Assembly: GCA_033664045.1 (NCBI GenBank)
Contig: GCA_033664045.1_3674.1
Reading direction: 5' to 3' (one strand)
Length of the DNA: 64,000 nt
From: a phage
The notes below the pieces were generated by a model. The model made no database searches. It worked only from the letters and a program-made list of their open reading frames with translations, and was not told the DNA's origin. Shown one piece after another: positions 52,035 through 56,013 of this stretch (position 1 is its first letter; each line of letters opens with the position of its first letter). The translations under genes and the position numbers were made by a program.

Positions 52035-52967
52035 TCATTTACCACAAATCTTCTTGTATACCTCTTCTACCGTGTCAAACACTTCAGGCCTGTAGTAGAA
52101 AAACTCAGTGCTACCGTCAAATTTTACAGGAAAGTTTATTTTATACTTGCTGAAGGCCTTATGCACAGATTTTTCTAAATCTACCATGTTTTGAGTTGAT
52201 CCGCTCCATGTTTTTACTACGTGAAGAGTGTGGACACCTGCGCCAGATTTACGAGCACTGTTAAGCACCTCATTTTTCCTCCTGTGCATTTTAACGCATA
52301 CACCGATTTTCATAAGTGTTGGCACTTCTAAGTCATCAACCATAATGTAGAGTTTACCGTACTCATGAGATAAGAATCCATTTTGTGCGCATTTACAGCA
52401 GCCACGACCACTTTTTAGGTTATTAGGTTTAGCAGACCACTTATACCCACAAATTTTGCACCTACATTGCACTTTTGTGTTATCATTGGCAATTTCCTCT
52501 AATATTTCTATATCTGGGTTGGCTTTGTGGATAATTGCAGCATGCTCCTTATGGGTTAACGCTTGACTTTGCCCACGTCTTAAGTCATAGCACTCTGGGC
52601 AGCCGTTTCTTTGGTATAAGTGGTTTTCAGGGTATTGTTCAAACACACCGTGTTCAGGGCAAACAATTTTTACAGGCGTTCTCATGTTCACATATTTGAC
52701 TAATGAGTAATCGTACTTGTCCCCATGAACAGCCATAGCCTCTTTTATGAACTCTTCAGTGTTCTTTTTCGCTGACCCACCACACCTTGGACAACCATGC
52801 TTCTTGAAAGCATGTGCCACAGGGGTTTGCCAGAACTCACCGTGCTCAGGACAAATTATGCACACAGGTGTCTTGTTGTTTTTATACTCCACTTTGAAGT
52901 AATCATATTTGTCACCATGTATAGTCTGAGCTTTTTCTATAAACTCTTCGGTTGTTAGTCTCCTCAT
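52035..52967 (-). CDS. putative homing endonuclease (T5orf172 / GIY-YIG-like C-terminal domain)
   Basis: three repeated modules HGDKYDY...V.I.CPEHG.F.Q.P..H...GCP.C, then KLYIMVDD...LMKIGVC...RRKNEV. Confidence 0.55.
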   Translation of the reverse strand: MRRLTTEEFIEKAQTIHGDKYDYFKVEYKNNKTPVCIICPEHGEFWQTPVAHAFKKHGCPRCGGSAKKNTEEFIKEAMAVHGDKYDYSLVKYVNMRTPVKIVCPEHGVFEQYPENHLYQRNGCPECYDLRRGQSQALTHKEHAAIIHKANPDIEILEEIANDNTKVQCRCKICGYKWSAKPNNLKSGRGCCKCAQNGFLSHEYGKLYIMVDDLEVPTLMKIGVCVKMHRRKNEVLNSARKSGAGVHTLHVVKTWSGSTQNMVDLEKSVHKAFSKYKINFPVKFDGSTEFFYYRPEVFDTVEEVYKKICGK

Positions 52968-53076
52968 TACCAGACCAGACCCTTCCGCTATTCACTTTAT
53001 ATTGCATACTATAGAAAAGAGGAATAGAAGTCAATAAAAACAAAAATGAGAGCATCCTTGCTCTCAATCTCTTTCC

Positions 53077-54366
53077 TTATTTACTCAACGGACAACAGTC
53101 TACATTCCCAACATGTTTAACACGTTCGATAACCTCTGCTTGTTTACCTGTGTTATACGGTCTACTGTTCGGGCTGGAGAGATAGCCAGACACTCTTCGG
53201 ATCACTGAGATATATTGTTCATCGTGGCATCCACACGCAGGGCAGCAGAACCCTTTAGCTGTTGCACTGAACTCACCAGAGAAACCACACTTAAGACATT
53301 TATCCACAGGTTGGTTAATACCAAAATACATAATGTGTTTATACCCGAAATCGACAAGGGCTTCCAAAGCATCCAAGTTGTTTTTCAGGTTAGGTGTTTC
53401 TATGTATCCAATGTTGCCGCCAGAAGAGATCATAGCAAAACCTTCCTCATACTTCCACTTATCAAAAGGCGAGCTGTTGATCCATACTGGCTGATGGAAA
53501 CTGTTGGTGAGGTATTCATGCTCGTGCTTCAACACTTCTGGGTATTCACGATCCAGACAGGTTGCAGCTTTATAGCATAAACTCTCAGAAGGTGTGCCGT
53601 ACAAGCTAAATGCTAGTCCACTTTCCTTCTTATATCGATCACAAGCATCTTTCATATGCTGAAGGATTCCAAGAGCTAAAGCCTTGTCACCCTCTCTGCC
53701 CAAAATTTGGCAGGTTTCATACACACCAATATACCCAATACTGATGGAAGCGTACCCGTCATAGAAGAGTTTATCGATACTCTCTTCAGGATCCAGGCGA
53801 GCAAGAGCTCCTTCACACCACATGATAGGGTTCTGCCCAGCCTTGGTGCCTTTCAAACGATTAACTCTTACAAGGTGAGCCTCATATGCCAAATCCAAGT
53901 ATTCGTCAAGAACGGCAAAGAAATCAACACCTTCCGTCTTAGCTTTTGCCGCAATCATTGGCAGGTTAAGACTAACAACCCCCAAGTTGAATCTGCCGAG
54001 GTATTTCTCCTCACCTGTTTCCAAGTCATTGTATTTGCTAAGAAAACTCCGGCAACCCATGCTCGTTACTTTGCCATCTGTAGAGCCTGTCACTTTACGA
54101 TTTAGTGGAACAGAAACAAAGTCAGGATAAATCCGCTCTGCAGAGCATTCCAGAGCTAATCGTTTCAAATCATAGTTAGGATCTCCAGGGTTCATGTTGA
54201 CACCTTCTTCTAGGAAGAACAGCACTTTAGGGAACACAGGTGTGATACGTTCTTCACCAAGACCCATTTTGTGGACTTTCAAGTAGTTTTTGGTAATCAT
54301 TCTACCAAATACTGAGGTGTCCAGACCTAAACTTAATGTGATGAATGGAGTCTGCTGTCTCCTCCC
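53077..54366 (-). CDS. nrdD: anaerobic ribonucleoside-triphosphate reductase, 3' exon (glycyl-radical half)
   Basis: QQTPFITLSLGLDTS...GDPNYDL collinear with E. coli NrdD QVPFSSINYGT...GDPNYDL; Zn ribbon CLKCG...CPACGC; glycyl-radical motif RRVSGY. Confidence 0.85.
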   Translation of the reverse strand, partial: GRRQQTPFITLSLGLDTSVFGRMITKNYLKVHKMGLGEERITPVFPKVLFFLEEGVNMNPGDPNYDLKRLALECSAERIYPDFVSVPLNRKVTGSTDGKVTSMGCRSFLSKYNDLETGEEKYLGRFNLGVVSLNLPMIAAKAKTEGVDFFAVLDEYLDLAYEAHLVRVNRLKGTKAGQNPIMWCEGALARLDPEESIDKLFYDGYASISIGYIGVYETCQILGREGDKALALGILQHMKDACDRYKKESGLAFSLYGTPSESLCYKAATCLDREYPEVLKHEHEYLTNSFHQPVWINSSPFDKWKYEEGFAMISSGGNIGYIETPNLKNNLDALEALVDFGYKHIMYFGINQPVDKCLKCGFSGEFSATAKGFCCPACGCHDEQYISVIRRVSGYLSSPNSRPYNTGKQAEVIERVKHVGNVDCCPLSK

Positions 54367-55161
54367 CTGTGTTTCCACAGGGCCAGACTATCTCTTACTC
54401 TACTTCAATAAGATAATAACCCTTTATTGTGAGATGCTTACCTTCGGCATTTCCTTCGATAGCCCTATGAACGTTACCTACGTTCAAATTTAAGGCTTTT
54501 GCACAGGCATAGAGTGAAGGATATTCACCCACCAAGGTTTTCCCTTTGTATGCCTGCACTTTCCTATAGCACTTGCCTGGGCAAAGCCCTGTTCGGAAAG
54601 CATGTCTCTTATTATCTTCCGGCAAAACCCACTCTAGGTTAGACGGATGATCATTCAATGTATTGCCGTCTTTATGATTCACTTCCCAGTTTTCAGGGTC
54701 TTCTGGGACATCTGGCAAACAATACAAGGCAACAATCCTTGAGGTTTGGATTCGAATCTTTTTACCTTTGTGGTTGAAAGAGTACATATAACGGCGTTTA
54801 ACATGCTTGTTACCTTTTCCATAACCTCCCCACAATATTGGGTGTAGCATTCCACGTTTTCCGTATACGTTTCCAACCTCATCAATCACATAGTTTGATT
54901 CTTCACCATTAAGAATGATCTTTTTCATAGAGCCTCTCCATTTCGAAGTTAGTATTTCAACTAACCCCTACACTACTTGGTTCAGAAATGTTTGTCAAGC
55001 ATCTCTGCCTTTCGTTAGTCGTTACAACCGTTCCAACTCCTGTAAGAACTAGTCACGGGATTGGCATAGCTTTCGCCTTAGCGTTCCCCGTTAGCCGGAT
55101 TTACCGACCCCTCTTATGAGGTTAGGAGAGTTTTACAACGGCCAGTTTGTTAACCGTTGAC
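54367..55161 (-). mobile_element. putative group I self-splicing intron interrupting nrdD
   Basis: splits a collinear NrdD reading frame; 5' exon ends in U, proposed intron ends in G; P7-like GACUA ... UAGUC segments; carries HNH ORF. Confidence 0.6.
54395..54928 (-). CDS. HNH homing endonuclease (intron-encoded)
   Basis: HNH core EVNHKDGNTLNDHPSNLEWVLPEDNKRHA. Confidence 0.8.
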   Translation of the reverse strand: MKKIILNGEESNYVIDEVGNVYGKRGMLHPILWGGYGKGNKHVKRRYMYSFNHKGKKIRIQTSRIVALYCLPDVPEDPENWEVNHKDGNTLNDHPSNLEWVLPEDNKRHAFRTGLCPGKCYRKVQAYKGKTLVGEYPSLYACAKALNLNVGNVHRAIEGNAEGKHLTIKGYYLIEVE

Positions 55162-56013
55162 AGAAGTTAACGTATTGATTTGATAAAGCAACGTCTGCAT
55201 GCTGTCAAACACGTCTTTATCTGTCATTTGCATTGCAACAGTCTCAGCATCTGGCAACCAATGTTCCTGGCAAAACTTAAGGTTCTTCTCATAGGTTGCT
55301 TCAGCATATTGTGCCAGATAATGATCAATATGGCTCATAGTCTGACCACCATATTGAGCACTAGCTACCGCACTAGAGATTTGGCTAAGGATTGTTGTTG
55401 CAACCCCTATTGACTTCGGCTTACTGACATGGGCGTTGCCAATGTTGAATCCGTTTTCCAACATATCTGGATAATTTACCAAACAACAGTTTGTTAACGG
55501 ACTGATCAAGTAGTCAAGATCATGCACATGGATGAAGCCTCTATTGTGCTCTTCTGAGACACGGTCTGGCAGGATTTGTGTTGATGCAAGGTGTTTGCTA
55601 AGGATGCCTGCAAGCAGGTCACGATGAGTGTGTACATGATTGGTAGGCTTATTTGCGTTTTCTTTTGTAAATTCATCACAAGTGCGATCCAAGAAGCCAC
55701 TAATATCTGCAAGCAGTTTTCCACCTGCCTCTCTGTTATTATCTCTTGTCTGCCTATACTGGATGTATTCTCTGGCTGCACATTTTAAACCCATATCCAT
55801 AAAAGCGTCTTCAACAAGGGTATGGATATTTTTTACAGAGATCGTGCACTGGTCGGTTGGTAGATTGTTAGCAACAACTTCATTAACCGCGCAGGCGATC
55901 CGGTAAGCTTCTTCTTCAGTATGCCCAGACTCAAGTAAGGCGGACTCTGCCGCCTTGATCACCTTAATTCCGTTATAGACCTCTTCTCTACCGTCCCGTT
56001 TTACAACTTTCAC
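55162..56013 (-). CDS. nrdD: anaerobic ribonucleoside-triphosphate reductase, 5' exon (ATP-cone half)
   Basis: ATP-cone MKVVKRDGREEVYNGIKVIKAAESA; HVHDLDY; ends ...YQINTLTS; track ORF 55150-56013 reads into intron. Confidence 0.8.

What the first reader, a model, noticed from the sequence alone, without database searches (positions are those of the whole stretch)
53077..56013. nrdD is split by a probable group I intron carrying an HNH endonuclease
The N-terminal (ATP-cone, HVHDLDY) and C-terminal (Zn ribbon, glycyl-radical RVSGY) halves of NrdD lie in two same-strand ORFs about 0.8 kb apart, and an HNH endonuclease ORF (54395-54928) sits in the gap. Joining ...AAU ACG UUA ACU UCU (5' exon ending in U) to GGG AGG AGA CAG CAG (after a G at the proposed intron end) gives ...NTLTS-GRRQQTPF, matching E. 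coli ...NTMHS-RAGAQVPF in length and position. Segments resembling P7 strands (gugACUAGuuc near 55045 and agaUAGUCugg near 54385 in the minus-strand RNA) are present. Exact splice sites are inferred, not proven.
Basis: partly seen in the sequence, partly recalled or inferred. Interest (0 to 1): 0.6.

Follow-up and report, generated by a model that had tools for sequence, protein, structure and literature searches.

The report
Mobile group I intron in nrdD

Summary

Intron-less alleles in sister phages (APCEc02, EPFV3) read ...NTLTSVNG|QTPF. That fixes exon 1 as ending at U55153 (GGU, just before a UAA stop) and exon 2 as starting at C54354. The intron is 55152..54355 (798 nt), not 55161..54367. 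The true P7 5' strand is GACUA at 55020-55016, not the GACUAG near 55050.

The ribozyme core is supported by covariation in 13 family members: 97% of cells pair against 28-40% in slid controls, and 0 of 500 shuffles reach the observed score. It has the IA2 layout (P7.1 and P7.2 linked by GUA). The HNH ORF fills the P8 loop. Its Shine-Dalgarno sequence is the P3 3' strand, and its start and stop codons lie in or next to P8. The protein is an I-HmuI-type enzyme (profile E 5e-11; Foldseek E 6e-10).

Within Vequintavirus the site is empty, holds an ORF-less intron, or holds this ORF-bearing intron. The intron is 99% conserved against 90-98% for the exons, and each intron type has its own exon flanks. 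This is the signature of homing. Aeromonas phage Aes508 has an annotated intron at the identical site.

Splicing itself was not tested. Verdict: a new member of a known kind, of low interest.

The parts
55153..56013 (-). nrdD exon 1 (287 codons, GTG start; ATP-cone plus the N-terminal part of the NrdD fold). Ends ...UCU GUC AAC GGU.
   Evidence: ORF list; Pfam ATP-cone and NRDD 1-154; tblastn with uninterrupted APCEc02 NrdD residues 1-287 ends at 55153.
54355..55152 (-). Group I (IA2-like) intron, 798 nt. It begins with UAA, which is an in-frame stop for unspliced mRNA, and ends ...GACAG (terminal G = 54355).
   Evidence: Boundaries from intron-less alleles; Rfam RF00028 27.7 bits, E 9e-5; core covariation; MFE fold of the ORF-deleted intron.
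55136..55159 (-). P1 hairpin. The last 7 exon nt, CAACGGU (55159-55153), pair with the internal guide sequence GCCGUUG (55142-55136). U55153.G55142 is the splice-site wobble. The loop is UAACAAACUG.
   Evidence: 7/7 pairs. Compensatory variants: CM1 and Aes508 AAACGGU/GCCGUUU, L119 UAACGGU/GCCGUUG, L092 CGGAGGU/GCCUCCU, L029 AAUGGGU/GCCCACU.
55143..55145 (-). P10 partner CUG in the P1 loop. It pairs with the first three exon-2 nucleotides, CAG (54354-54352).
   Evidence: Read directly from the sequence. Only 2 of 3 pairs form in CM1 and Aes508, whose exon 2 starts CAA, so support is weak.
55125..55130 (-). P3 5' strand, CUCUCC.
   Evidence: Pairs with GGAGAG at 54939-54934. All 5 tested pairs show compensatory changes across 13 family members.
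55094..55121 (-). Two extra hairpins between the P3 5' strand and J3/4: CCUC-AUAA-GAGG (55121-55110) and GUCGG-UAAAU-CCGGC (55108-55094).
   Evidence: Both are recovered by MFE folds. They covary between the window, CM1 and Aes508, and the same layout appears in many IMG/VR family members.
55055..55091 (-). P4-P5-P4': ACGGG(G) ... GC-GGC GAAA GCU-GC ... CCCGU.
   Evidence: Core motif shared with 109 IMG/VR stretches. P4 pairs in 98.5% of cells, with one covarying pair.
55021..55054 (-). P6 (GAC/GUU) with the hairpin GUUCUUAC-AGGA-GUUGGAAC, followed by J6/7 (GUAAC).
   Evidence: 2 of 3 P6 pairs covary (GAC/GUU, GCC/GGU, GGG/CCU, GUC/GAU, GCU/AGU).
55016..55020 (-). P7 5' strand, GACUA.
   Evidence: Invariant in all 13 members and pairs with UAGUC at 54390-54386. 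Rfam alignments of the ORF-less relatives place it at the model's P7.
54947..55007 (-). P7.1 (CAGAGAUG...CAUUUCUG, 55007-54983) and P7.2 (GGUUAGU...ACUAACU, 54966-54947), joined by a linker that contains GUA.
   Evidence: MFE fold. The IA2 criterion 'P7.1 and P7.2 linked by G-U-A' is taken from PMC3428280.
54934..54939 (-). P3 3' strand, GGAGAG, which is also the Shine-Dalgarno sequence of the HNH ORF.
   Evidence: Sequence; P3 covariation. It lies 5 nt upstream of the AUG at 54928.
54395..54928 (-). HNH homing-endonuclease ORF (177 aa) in the P8 loop. P8 is GCUCUA (54933-54928) paired with UAGAGU (54402-54397); the first base of the AUG is the last base of the 5' strand. The last sense codons (GUA GAG) plus the U of the stop codon form the 3' strand.
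   Evidence: Pfam HNH_3 and PHROG 59; I-HmuI 1U3E at profile E 5e-11 and Foldseek E 6e-10; all 6 P8 pairs covary.
54386..54394 (-). J8/7 and the P7 3' strand (GAGAUAGUC).
   Evidence: The AAGAKAUAGUC motif is invariant in the family.
54355..54382 (-). P9 hairpin CCCUGUG-GAAA-CACAGGG (54382-54365) and a 10-nt tail, GAGGAGACAG, ending in the terminal G.
   Evidence: Rfam alignment; MFE fold; compensatory C-G to U-A change in CM1.
53077..54354 (-). nrdD exon 2 (425 codons plus stop). It starts CAG ACU CCA UUC (QTPF) and contains the glycyl-radical domain and the Zn ribbon.
   Evidence: tblastn: residues 288-707 begin at 54354; Pfam NRDD 155-562 and Gly_radical. The spliced product is 712 aa.

Best explanation
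The 798 nt at 55152..54355 (minus strand) are a mobile group I intron of the phage IA2 type inside nrdD.

Splicing (inferred). In the pre-mRNA the last 7 exon-1 nucleotides (CAACGGU) pair with the internal guide sequence (GCCGUUG) to form P1, with a U.G wobble at the splice site. A free guanosine bound at P7 attacks after U55153. The terminal G54355 then enters the G site, exon 2 is aligned by a short P10 (CAG/CUG), and the exons are ligated. The result is an uninterrupted 712-aa NrdD reading ...NTLTSVNG-QTPF. Unspliced mRNA terminates at the UAA that opens the intron.

Mobility (inferred). The P8 loop carries a 177-aa I-HmuI-type HNH endonuclease. By analogy with I-HmuI, I-BasI and I-TwoI, it most likely nicks one strand of intron-less nrdD alleles near GGG|CAA during mixed infection. 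Repair then copies the intron and some flanking exon sequence into the recipient, which is homing. The ORF's Shine-Dalgarno sequence is the P3 3' strand and its AUG lies in P8, so ribozyme folding and endonuclease translation should be mutually exclusive.

Shown here: the boundaries, the RNA architecture, the protein family, and the polymorphism pattern.
For: (1) Intron-less alleles in the same genus (APCEc02, EPFV3) read GTC AAC GGG|CAA ACT CCA. tblastn of APCEc02 NrdD puts residues 1-287 up to 55153 and residues 288-707 from 54354, so excision is exact and in frame.
(2) P1 pairs 7/7 with a U.G wobble and has compensatory variants in CM1, Aes508, L119, L029 and L092. A terminal G and a 3-bp P10 are present.
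(3) The P3/P4/P6/P7/P8 core, including the P3-P7 pseudoknot, pairs in 97.4% of cells against 28-40% when partners are slid. The covariation score is 0.668 against 0.06-0.14. None of 500 shuffles reaches it, and 14 of 24 pairs show double changes.
(4) Unconstrained MFE folds of the ORF-less CM1 intron (z = -3.35) and of the window intron with its ORF removed both recover the same helices.
(5) Rfam RF00028 gives a full-length match at E 9e-5. A family member with the same layout, L017, passes the curated threshold at 53.1 bits.
(6) Aeromonas phage Aes508 has a RefSeq-annotated joined nrdD whose intron sits at the identical site, NG|QTPF. A divergent metagenomic phage (L119) has the same intron type plus a 65%-identical HNH ORF at the same site.
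(7) The HNH protein matches Pfam HNH_3. It aligns end to end with I-HmuI 1U3E at profile E 5e-11. The AF2 model has pLDDT 87, and I-HmuI is its only significant Foldseek hit. The catalytic-motif residues N84, H85, N97, N106 and H109 are invariant.
(8) Of about 121 Vequintavirus records, 28 carry this intron at 97.5-99.9% identity, 14 carry an ORF-less form, and the rest are empty. The intron is 99.0-99.4% identical where the exons are 90-98% identical, and each intron type has its own synonymous exon flanks.
Against: There is no experimental or RNA-seq evidence of splicing for this phage or its genus in the literature I could search. The Rfam score is below the gathering threshold (27.7 against 50). 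P10 has only 3 bp, and only 2 in CM1 and Aes508. In the related Certrevirus CB7, one HNH-bearing insertion did not splice by RT-PCR (PMC7344957), so looking like an intron does not guarantee splicing. Nicking rather than double-strand cleavage, the cleavage position, and the translational-coupling idea are all inferences from family membership and geometry. The covariation alignment was assembled from strands taken by fixed offsets that I chose after inspecting the sequences. The slid-partner control addresses this only partly.
Confidence: 0.9

Rival explanations
1. The insertion does not splice. nrdD is a permanently fractured gene whose two halves are translated separately and assemble after translation, as reported for Aeromonas phage Aeh1 NrdA split by mobE.
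For: Most GenBank records annotate two separate nrdD CDSs. A non-splicing HNH-bearing insertion exists in the related phage CB7, and the Aeh1 precedent is cited there. Exon 1 ends with a stop codon immediately after the junction.
Against: The insertion has a complete, covariation-supported group I core with P1, P10 and a terminal G, which a free-standing endonuclease cassette would have no reason to keep. The ORF-less 257-nt form in 14 phages retains the ribozyme but has no endonuclease. The first in-frame start of the C-terminal ORF is a GTG inside the P9 hairpin with no Shine-Dalgarno sequence, and the ATG that CM1 annotates would drop the conserved QTPFITLSLG segment. The boundaries coincide exactly with the intron-less allele.
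Confidence: 0.06
2. It is a decayed group I intron that no longer splices efficiently, leaving nrdD a pseudogene in this phage. Anaerobic ribonucleotide reduction would be dispensable or supplied by the host.
For: The Rfam score is sub-threshold. Phage nrdD is an accessory gene that some relatives lack, for example several Certrevirus members.
Against: Both exons keep intact reading frames with full Pfam coverage. The intron is 97.5-99.9% conserved across 28 genomes with every core helix intact. The HNH catalytic motif is intact. The low Rfam score is a family-wide effect of the extra hairpins between P3 and J3/4.
Confidence: 0.03
3. The intervening sequence is removed at the protein level, as an intein would be.
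For: Inteins are common in ribonucleotide reductase genes (PMC3653736).
Against: The insertion opens with an in-frame UAA and is not one continuous frame with the exons. There are no intein domains; Pfam finds only HNH_3.
Confidence: 0.005

Closest known systems
Aeromonas phage Aes508 nrdD intron (RefSeq NC_019543, nrdD annotated as a joined CDS)
   Same: The insertion site is identical (…NG|QTPF; exon 1 ends AACGGU and exon 2 starts CA[AG]ACUCC). The ribozyme layout is the same: P1 with GCCGUUU, P3, two hairpins before J3/4, P4-P9, and J8/7 AAGAUAUAGUC.
   Different: The Aes508 intron is 382 nt with no endonuclease ORF and has a roughly 110-nt expansion of the P1 loop. The host phage is a T4-like Straboviridae member, not a Vequintavirus. 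Helix sequences differ throughout, which is what supplies the covariation.
Phage T4 nrdD (sunY) intron with I-TevII
   Same: It is a group IA2 intron in the same gene of a virulent coliphage, it carries a homing endonuclease, and it begins with an in-frame stop (UAA).
   Different: It is inserted 9 codons upstream (…AYE|VNTLFSSNGQTPF). Its endonuclease is GIY-YIG and, from my own recollection, lies near the 3' end of the intron rather than in P8. It has no hairpins between P3 and J3/4.
SPO1/SP82 DNA-polymerase introns with I-HmuI and I-HmuII (also I-BasI, I-TwoI, I-PfoP3I)
   Same: These are phage group I introns that encode a roughly 175-aa I-HmuI-type HNH enzyme. The window's protein aligns over nearly the full length of I-HmuI (8-161 against 8-159 of 174) and shares the fold. 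The characterised members are nickases (PMC3428280).
   Different: The host gene (DNA polymerase or nrdE) and the target site differ. Identity to I-HmuI is about 22%. The activity, strand preference and cleavage position of the window's enzyme are untested.
Vequintavirus 'intron 2' (td-like IA2 intron at …SMG|CRSF in navn, JEP1, EPFV3, 241Ecol014PP)
   Same: It lies in the same gene and the same genus, is a mobile IA2 intron with or without an HNH-type ORF, and has a similar 3' end (GAAGAUAUAGUCUGAUCUGCAUGGGAACAUGCAG).
   Different: It sits at a different site, 100 codons downstream, which is unoccupied in the window (54055|54054). It has the standard td-like P3-J3/4 junction without extra hairpins, and its ORF-less form scores 70.5 bits with Rfam.

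Membership tests
Group I intron (Rfam RF00028) | P1 formed by the 5' exon end and an internal guide sequence, with a U.G wobble at the 5' splice site | tested here: met
   CAACGGU/GCCGUUG pairs 7/7, with U55153.G55142. Compensatory variants occur in five other members.
Group I intron (Rfam RF00028) | The intron ends in G, and excision at the predicted sites restores the reading frame | tested here: met
   G54355 precedes exon 2. The junction is identical to the intron-less alleles APCEc02 and EPFV3.
Group I intron (Rfam RF00028) | Conserved core P3-P4-P6-P7-P8 with the P3/P7 pseudoknot and the J8/7 consensus | tested here: met
   97.4% of cells pair, 14 of 24 pairs show compensatory changes, and 0 of 500 shuffles reach the score; slid controls pair 28-40%. 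J8/7 is AAGAGAUAGUC.
Group I intron (Rfam RF00028) | Score at or above the curated covariance-model threshold (50 bits) | tested here: not met
   The window scores 27.7 bits (E 9e-5), and the ORF-less CM1 form scores 29.3 bits. Same-layout family members score from 28 to 53 bits, and only L017 passes. The model forces P3 onto a local hairpin. I therefore file the element as a group I intron on the helix-level tests, not on the Rfam score.
Group I intron (Rfam RF00028) | Guanosine-dependent self-splicing | not testable with these tools
   This needs in vitro transcription with GTP labelling, or RT-PCR across the junction.
Subgroup IA2 | Extra helices P7.1 and P7.2 between P7 and P3', linked by G-U-A (criterion as stated in PMC3428280) | tested here: met
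   P7.1 lies at 55007-54983 and P7.2 at 54966-54947, with GUA in the linker. CM1 has CCUUUUGG-UGUA-GGGAUU....
Mobile (homing) intron | Presence/absence polymorphism at one site among close relatives, with an intron-encoded endonuclease | tested here: met
   28 HEG-bearing, 14 ORF-less and roughly 79 empty alleles among about 121 records. The intron is 99% identical where exons are 90-98% identical, and exon flanks are specific to each intron type.
Mobile (homing) intron | The endonuclease cleaves the intron-less allele and promotes gene conversion | not testable with these tools
   This needs purified protein on the GTCAACGGGCAAACTCC target, and mixed-infection crosses.
I-HmuI-type HNH homing endonuclease | An HNH (beta-beta-alpha-metal) motif with the conserved His and Asn residues | tested here: met
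   Pfam HNH_3 at 29.3 bits against a cutoff of 24.8. NHKDGN...NLEW...N..H is invariant in 8 homologs and aligns with DHKDGN...NLRW...N of I-HmuI.
I-HmuI-type HNH homing endonuclease | Full-length architecture: N-terminal beta-sheet DNA-binding domain, HNH domain, and C-terminal helical DNA-binding domain | tested here: met
   The profile alignment covers 8-161 of 177 residues against 8-159 of 174, E 5e-11. The AF2 model (pLDDT 87) has N-terminal strands, an HNH region and C-terminal helices. 1u3e is the only significant Foldseek hit (E 6e-10), with TM about 0.5, as expected for an elongated multi-domain protein.
I-HmuI-type HNH homing endonuclease | Single-strand nicking activity | not testable with these tools
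   Inferred only from the characterised relatives (PMC3428280).

The most novel reading that the evidence does not exclude
The window's intron belongs to a large phage-borne IA2 sub-architecture with two defining traits. First, two covarying hairpins are inserted between the P3 5' strand and J3/4, a position I did not find described. Second, the standard Rfam model mostly misses this family: only 1 of 6 tested members passed. In the ORF-bearing form, the endonuclease's ribosome-binding site and start codon are built into P3 and P8, so that ribozyme folding and endonuclease translation act as a mutually exclusive switch.
Probability: 0.3. Interest if true: 0.4.

Novelty: new member of a known kind. 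Interest (0 to 1): 0.22.

Why it matters
For genome annotation, nrdD in about 40 Vequintavirus records, several of them therapeutic or biocontrol coliphages, is deposited as two or three separate CDSs plus a 'hypothetical' or HNH protein. The exact join is complement(join(53077..54354,55153..56013)) in window coordinates, and it yields a 712-aa NrdD. For biology, the genus offers a tidy natural series: empty site, ORF-less intron and HEG-bearing intron at one position, plus a second independent intron site 100 codons downstream. This series could be used to study homing, co-conversion and intron gain or loss in a non-T4 phage. Nothing here changes current understanding of group I introns.

Tried and rejected
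(1) The default Rfam gathering scan of the whole window found nothing. I did not take this as evidence against an intron, because a focused scan and family-wide tests showed that the model under-scores this layout.

Both were rejected on P1 geometry and on the intron-less alleles.

(3) MAFFT alignment of whole introns (A1) misaligned CM1 and Aes508 around P3b. I replaced it with a composite alignment of strands taken at fixed offsets (A2).

(4) A single-sequence AlphaFold model of the HNH protein was unusable (pLDDT 33). I repeated the prediction with an 8-sequence alignment.

(5) A literature search for 'P3.1/P3.2' returned only irrelevant papers, so I could not establish whether the extra hairpins have an accepted name.

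(6) My first regex for tabulating P1 matched the wrong sites. I redid it anchored on the conserved P1 loop.

(7) I did not attempt a full-length covariance model, because the tool's stated calibration times would exceed its limit for a model of about 260 positions.

(8) The sigma-70 promoter scan found no promoter-like site inside the intron upstream of the HNH ORF, and the total count did not exceed the shuffles.
Full report
**What is in the sequence.** On the minus strand the window carries the gene run nrdA - nrdB - glutaredoxin - nrdD - (endonuclease-like ORF) - nrdG. The region 53077-56013 holds three ORFs:
- 56013..55150 is 287 aa and matches Pfam ATP-cone plus NRDD profile positions 1-154.
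- 54928..54395 is 177 aa and matches Pfam HNH_3.
- 54378..53077 matches NRDD profile positions 155-562 plus Gly_radical.

The two NrdD pieces therefore abut exactly in profile coordinates. Megablast identifies the window as a Vequintavirus (rV5/FFH2/FV3-like coliphage), and 121 records match this region at 90-99% identity.

**Splice sites.** The genus is polymorphic here, and that settles the junction.
- APCEc02 (KR698074) has an uninterrupted 2124-nt nrdD.
- EPFV3-03/2025 also lacks this insertion.
- Both read ...ACG TTA ACY TCT GTC AAC GGG|CAA ACT CCA TTC, which translates to NTLTSVNG|QTPF.
- tblastn with APCEc02 NrdD aligns residues 1-287 up to window 55153 and residues 288-707 from 54354.

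The intron is therefore 55152..54355, 798 nt. It begins with UAA, an in-frame stop for unspliced mRNA, and ends ...GACAG. The spliced NrdD is 712 aa.

The peptide they give, NTLTS-GRRQQTPF, is not the product.

**Ribozyme anatomy.** I compared the window with two relatives:
- the 257-nt ORF-less intron of Shigella phage CM1, at the same site;
- the 382-nt intron of Aeromonas phage Aes508. It is also at the identical NG|QTPF site and is annotated in RefSeq as a joined CDS.

This gives a complete group I layout:
- **P1:** exon CAACGGU (55159-55153) pairs with the guide sequence GCCGUUG (55142-55136), with a U.G wobble at the splice site. CM1 and Aes508 have AAACGGU/GCCGUUU, L119 has UAACGGU/GCCGUUG, and other family members have unrelated but complementary pairs.
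- **P10:** exon-2 CAG pairs with CUG at 55145-55143.
- **P3:** CUCUCC (55130-55125) pairs with GGAGAG (54939-54934).
- **P4-P5:** 55091-55055.
- **P6:** GAC/GUU plus a hairpin, 55054-55021.
- **P7:** GACUA (55020-55016) pairs with UAGUC (54390-54386).
- **P7.1 and P7.2:** 55007-54983 and 54966-54947, joined by a linker containing GUA. This is the IA2 hallmark as stated in PMC3428280.
- **P8:** GCUCUA (54933-54928) pairs with UAGAGU (54402-54397).
- **P9:** 54382-54365, followed by a 10-nt tail ending in the terminal G54355.

**Statistical support.** A core-motif scan of IMG/VR (GCTAAC-N0-1-GGGGAAC...CAATCC) returned 109 stretches. Many share the window's layout. I took helix strands from 13 sequences by fixed offsets from invariant anchors: the window, CM1, Aes508 and 10 ORF-less metagenomic members. 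The P3/P4/P6/P7/P8 structure, including the P3-P7 pseudoknot, gave these results:
- 97.4% of cells pair, against 28-40% when partners are slid by 1-3 columns.
- The covariation score is 0.668 against 0.06-0.14 for the slid controls.
- None of 500 shuffles reaches the observed values.
- All 5 P3 pairs, all 6 P8 pairs, 2 of 3 P6 pairs and 1 of 5 P4 pairs show double changes. P7 is invariant.

Unconstrained MFE folds recover the same helices, both for the CM1 intron (z = -3.35) and for the window intron with its ORF interior removed.

**Why Rfam missed it.** RF00028 scores the window at 27.7 bits (E 9e-5), below the 50-bit threshold. This family has two covarying hairpins (55121-55110 and 55108-55094) between the P3 5' strand and J3/4. 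The Rfam alignment forces P3 onto the second hairpin. Of six ORF-less same-layout introns scanned:
- only L017 passes, at 53.1 bits;
- four score 27-38 bits;
- one gives no hit.

The td-like 'intron 2' of a relative scores 70.5 bits. The low score is therefore a blind spot of the model, not evidence against a group I intron. I found no description of hairpins at that position, but I cannot exclude that one exists.

**The endonuclease.** The ORF occupies the P8 loop.
- Its Shine-Dalgarno sequence GGAGAG is the P3 3' strand.
- The first base of its AUG closes the P8 5' strand.
- Its last sense codons (GUA GAG) plus the U of the stop codon form the P8 3' strand.

The protein matches Pfam HNH_3 and PHROG 59. 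It aligns end to end with I-HmuI (PDB 1U3E): phmmer E 2.7e-4, and a profile of 8 homologs gives E 5e-11 over 8-161 against 8-159 of 174. An alignment-based AlphaFold model (pLDDT 87.3) has I-HmuI as its only significant Foldseek hit (E 5.8e-10, probability 1.00). The NH...N...N..H motif is invariant. Characterised I-HmuI-type enzymes are nickases (PMC3428280), so nicking is my inference here.

The lineage is narrow, with 9 homologs at E <= 1e-5. One of them, 65% identical, sits at the same NG|QTPF site inside the same intron type in a divergent metagenomic phage (L119).

**Evidence for mobility.** Of about 121 related records, 28 carry this ORF-bearing intron at 97.5-99.9% identity. Another 14 carry the ORF-less lineage, whose first 139 nt are 86-87% identical and whose remainder is diverged. 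The rest are empty. Against ECML-10 and JEP1 the intron is 99.4% and 99.0% identical, while the exon segments are 90-98% identical.

Each state has its own synonymous exon flank:
- **Empty site:** GTCAACGGG|CAAACTCC
- **ORF-bearing intron:** TTAACTTCTGTCAACGGT|CAGACTCCATTC
- **ORF-less intron:** CTAACCTCGGTAAACGGT|CAAACCCCTTTT

This is what co-conversion during homing would leave behind. The two intron lineages differ throughout P7.1-P8 and in P3, so the ORF-less form is not a simple deletion of this one.

**Relation to T4.** The T4 nrdD (sunY) intron with I-TevII lies 9 codons upstream (…AYE|VNTLFSSNGQTPF) and encodes a GIY-YIG enzyme. It is a different insertion.

**Literature.**
- The rV5 genome paper discusses introns only in the terminase gene.
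- A survey of split ribonucleotide reductase genes in phages does not list rV5.
- The Certrevirus CB7 paper shows RT-PCR splicing of HNH-bearing introns in terL, DNA polymerase, nrdA and nrdB, and one insertion that does not splice.
- I found no paper on a Vequintavirus nrdD intron.
- GenBank annotators label the ORF a homing endonuclease (one record notes 'Phage intron') but leave nrdD as separate CDSs.

**Verdict.** This is a new, well-supported member of a known kind: a phage IA2 group I intron with an I-HmuI-type HNH homing endonuclease in a ribonucleotide reductase gene. Splicing and endonuclease activity remain untested. Interest is low.

Noticed in passing
window 52035-52967 (minus strand): A 310-aa free-standing endonuclease-like ORF lies between nrdD and nrdG. 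It matches two DUF723 repeats, a CapR/treble-clef zinc finger and a C-terminal T5orf172 domain, and PHROG 681 'endonuclease' at E 7e-66. T4 has the HNH gene mobC in the same nrdD-nrdG gap. APCEc02 has no ORF of that size annotated there.
   Followed up: partly
window 54055|54054 (minus strand; codons ...SMG|CRSF): This is the empty target site of a second, td-like IA2 intron. That intron is present in navn, JEP1, EPFV3 and 241Ecol014PP with a roughly 169-aa ORF, and in an IMG/VR vequintavirus (L028) without an ORF (Rfam 70.5 bits). The genus therefore shows at least five different combinations across the two intron sites.
   Followed up: partly
L119 positions 950-1990 (metagenomic phage, ERR477280): There is a third nrdD insertion site, at ...FIHVH|DLDY, carrying a different 206-aa HNH ORF. 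Downstream of the ORF are group-I-like elements (AUCGACUAU ... GAUAUAGUC). nrdD in that phage is in three pieces.
   Followed up: no
window 55094-55121; IMG/VR loci L010-L118: Two covarying hairpins lie between the P3 5' strand and J3/4. They are shared by many phage introns found with the P4-P5 core pattern, and members with this layout mostly fall below Rfam's RF00028 threshold. I could not find this position named in the literature I searched.
   Followed up: partly
window 53047-53066 (minus strand): A terminator-like hairpin (TGAGAGCA-AGGA-TGCTCTCA followed by TTTTTGTTTT) lies about 10 nt after the nrdD stop codon and ahead of the endonuclease-like ORF.
   Followed up: no
window 53077-53250 (3' end of nrdD): The NrdD C-terminus differs from APCEc02...GFCCPACGCHDEQYIS...VKHVGNVDCCPLSK against ...GFVCPECGNHEEGTIS...VKHYGSCSC. 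The distal part of exon 2 is the least conserved segment among relatives, at 89-95% identity. This may be recombination next to the neighbouring endonuclease gene.
   Followed up: no
GenBank MG065655, MG065644, MG065690 (hits): Records named 'Campylobacter phage C2/A147/A135' are 96% identical to E. coli vequintaviruses across nrdD and carry the same introns. The host label looks doubtful.
   Followed up: no
L008 positions 2128-2240 (Aes508 intron): The P1 loop of the Aes508 intron is expanded by about 110 nt and holds no long ORF. It may be the remnant of a lost insertion.
   Followed up: no
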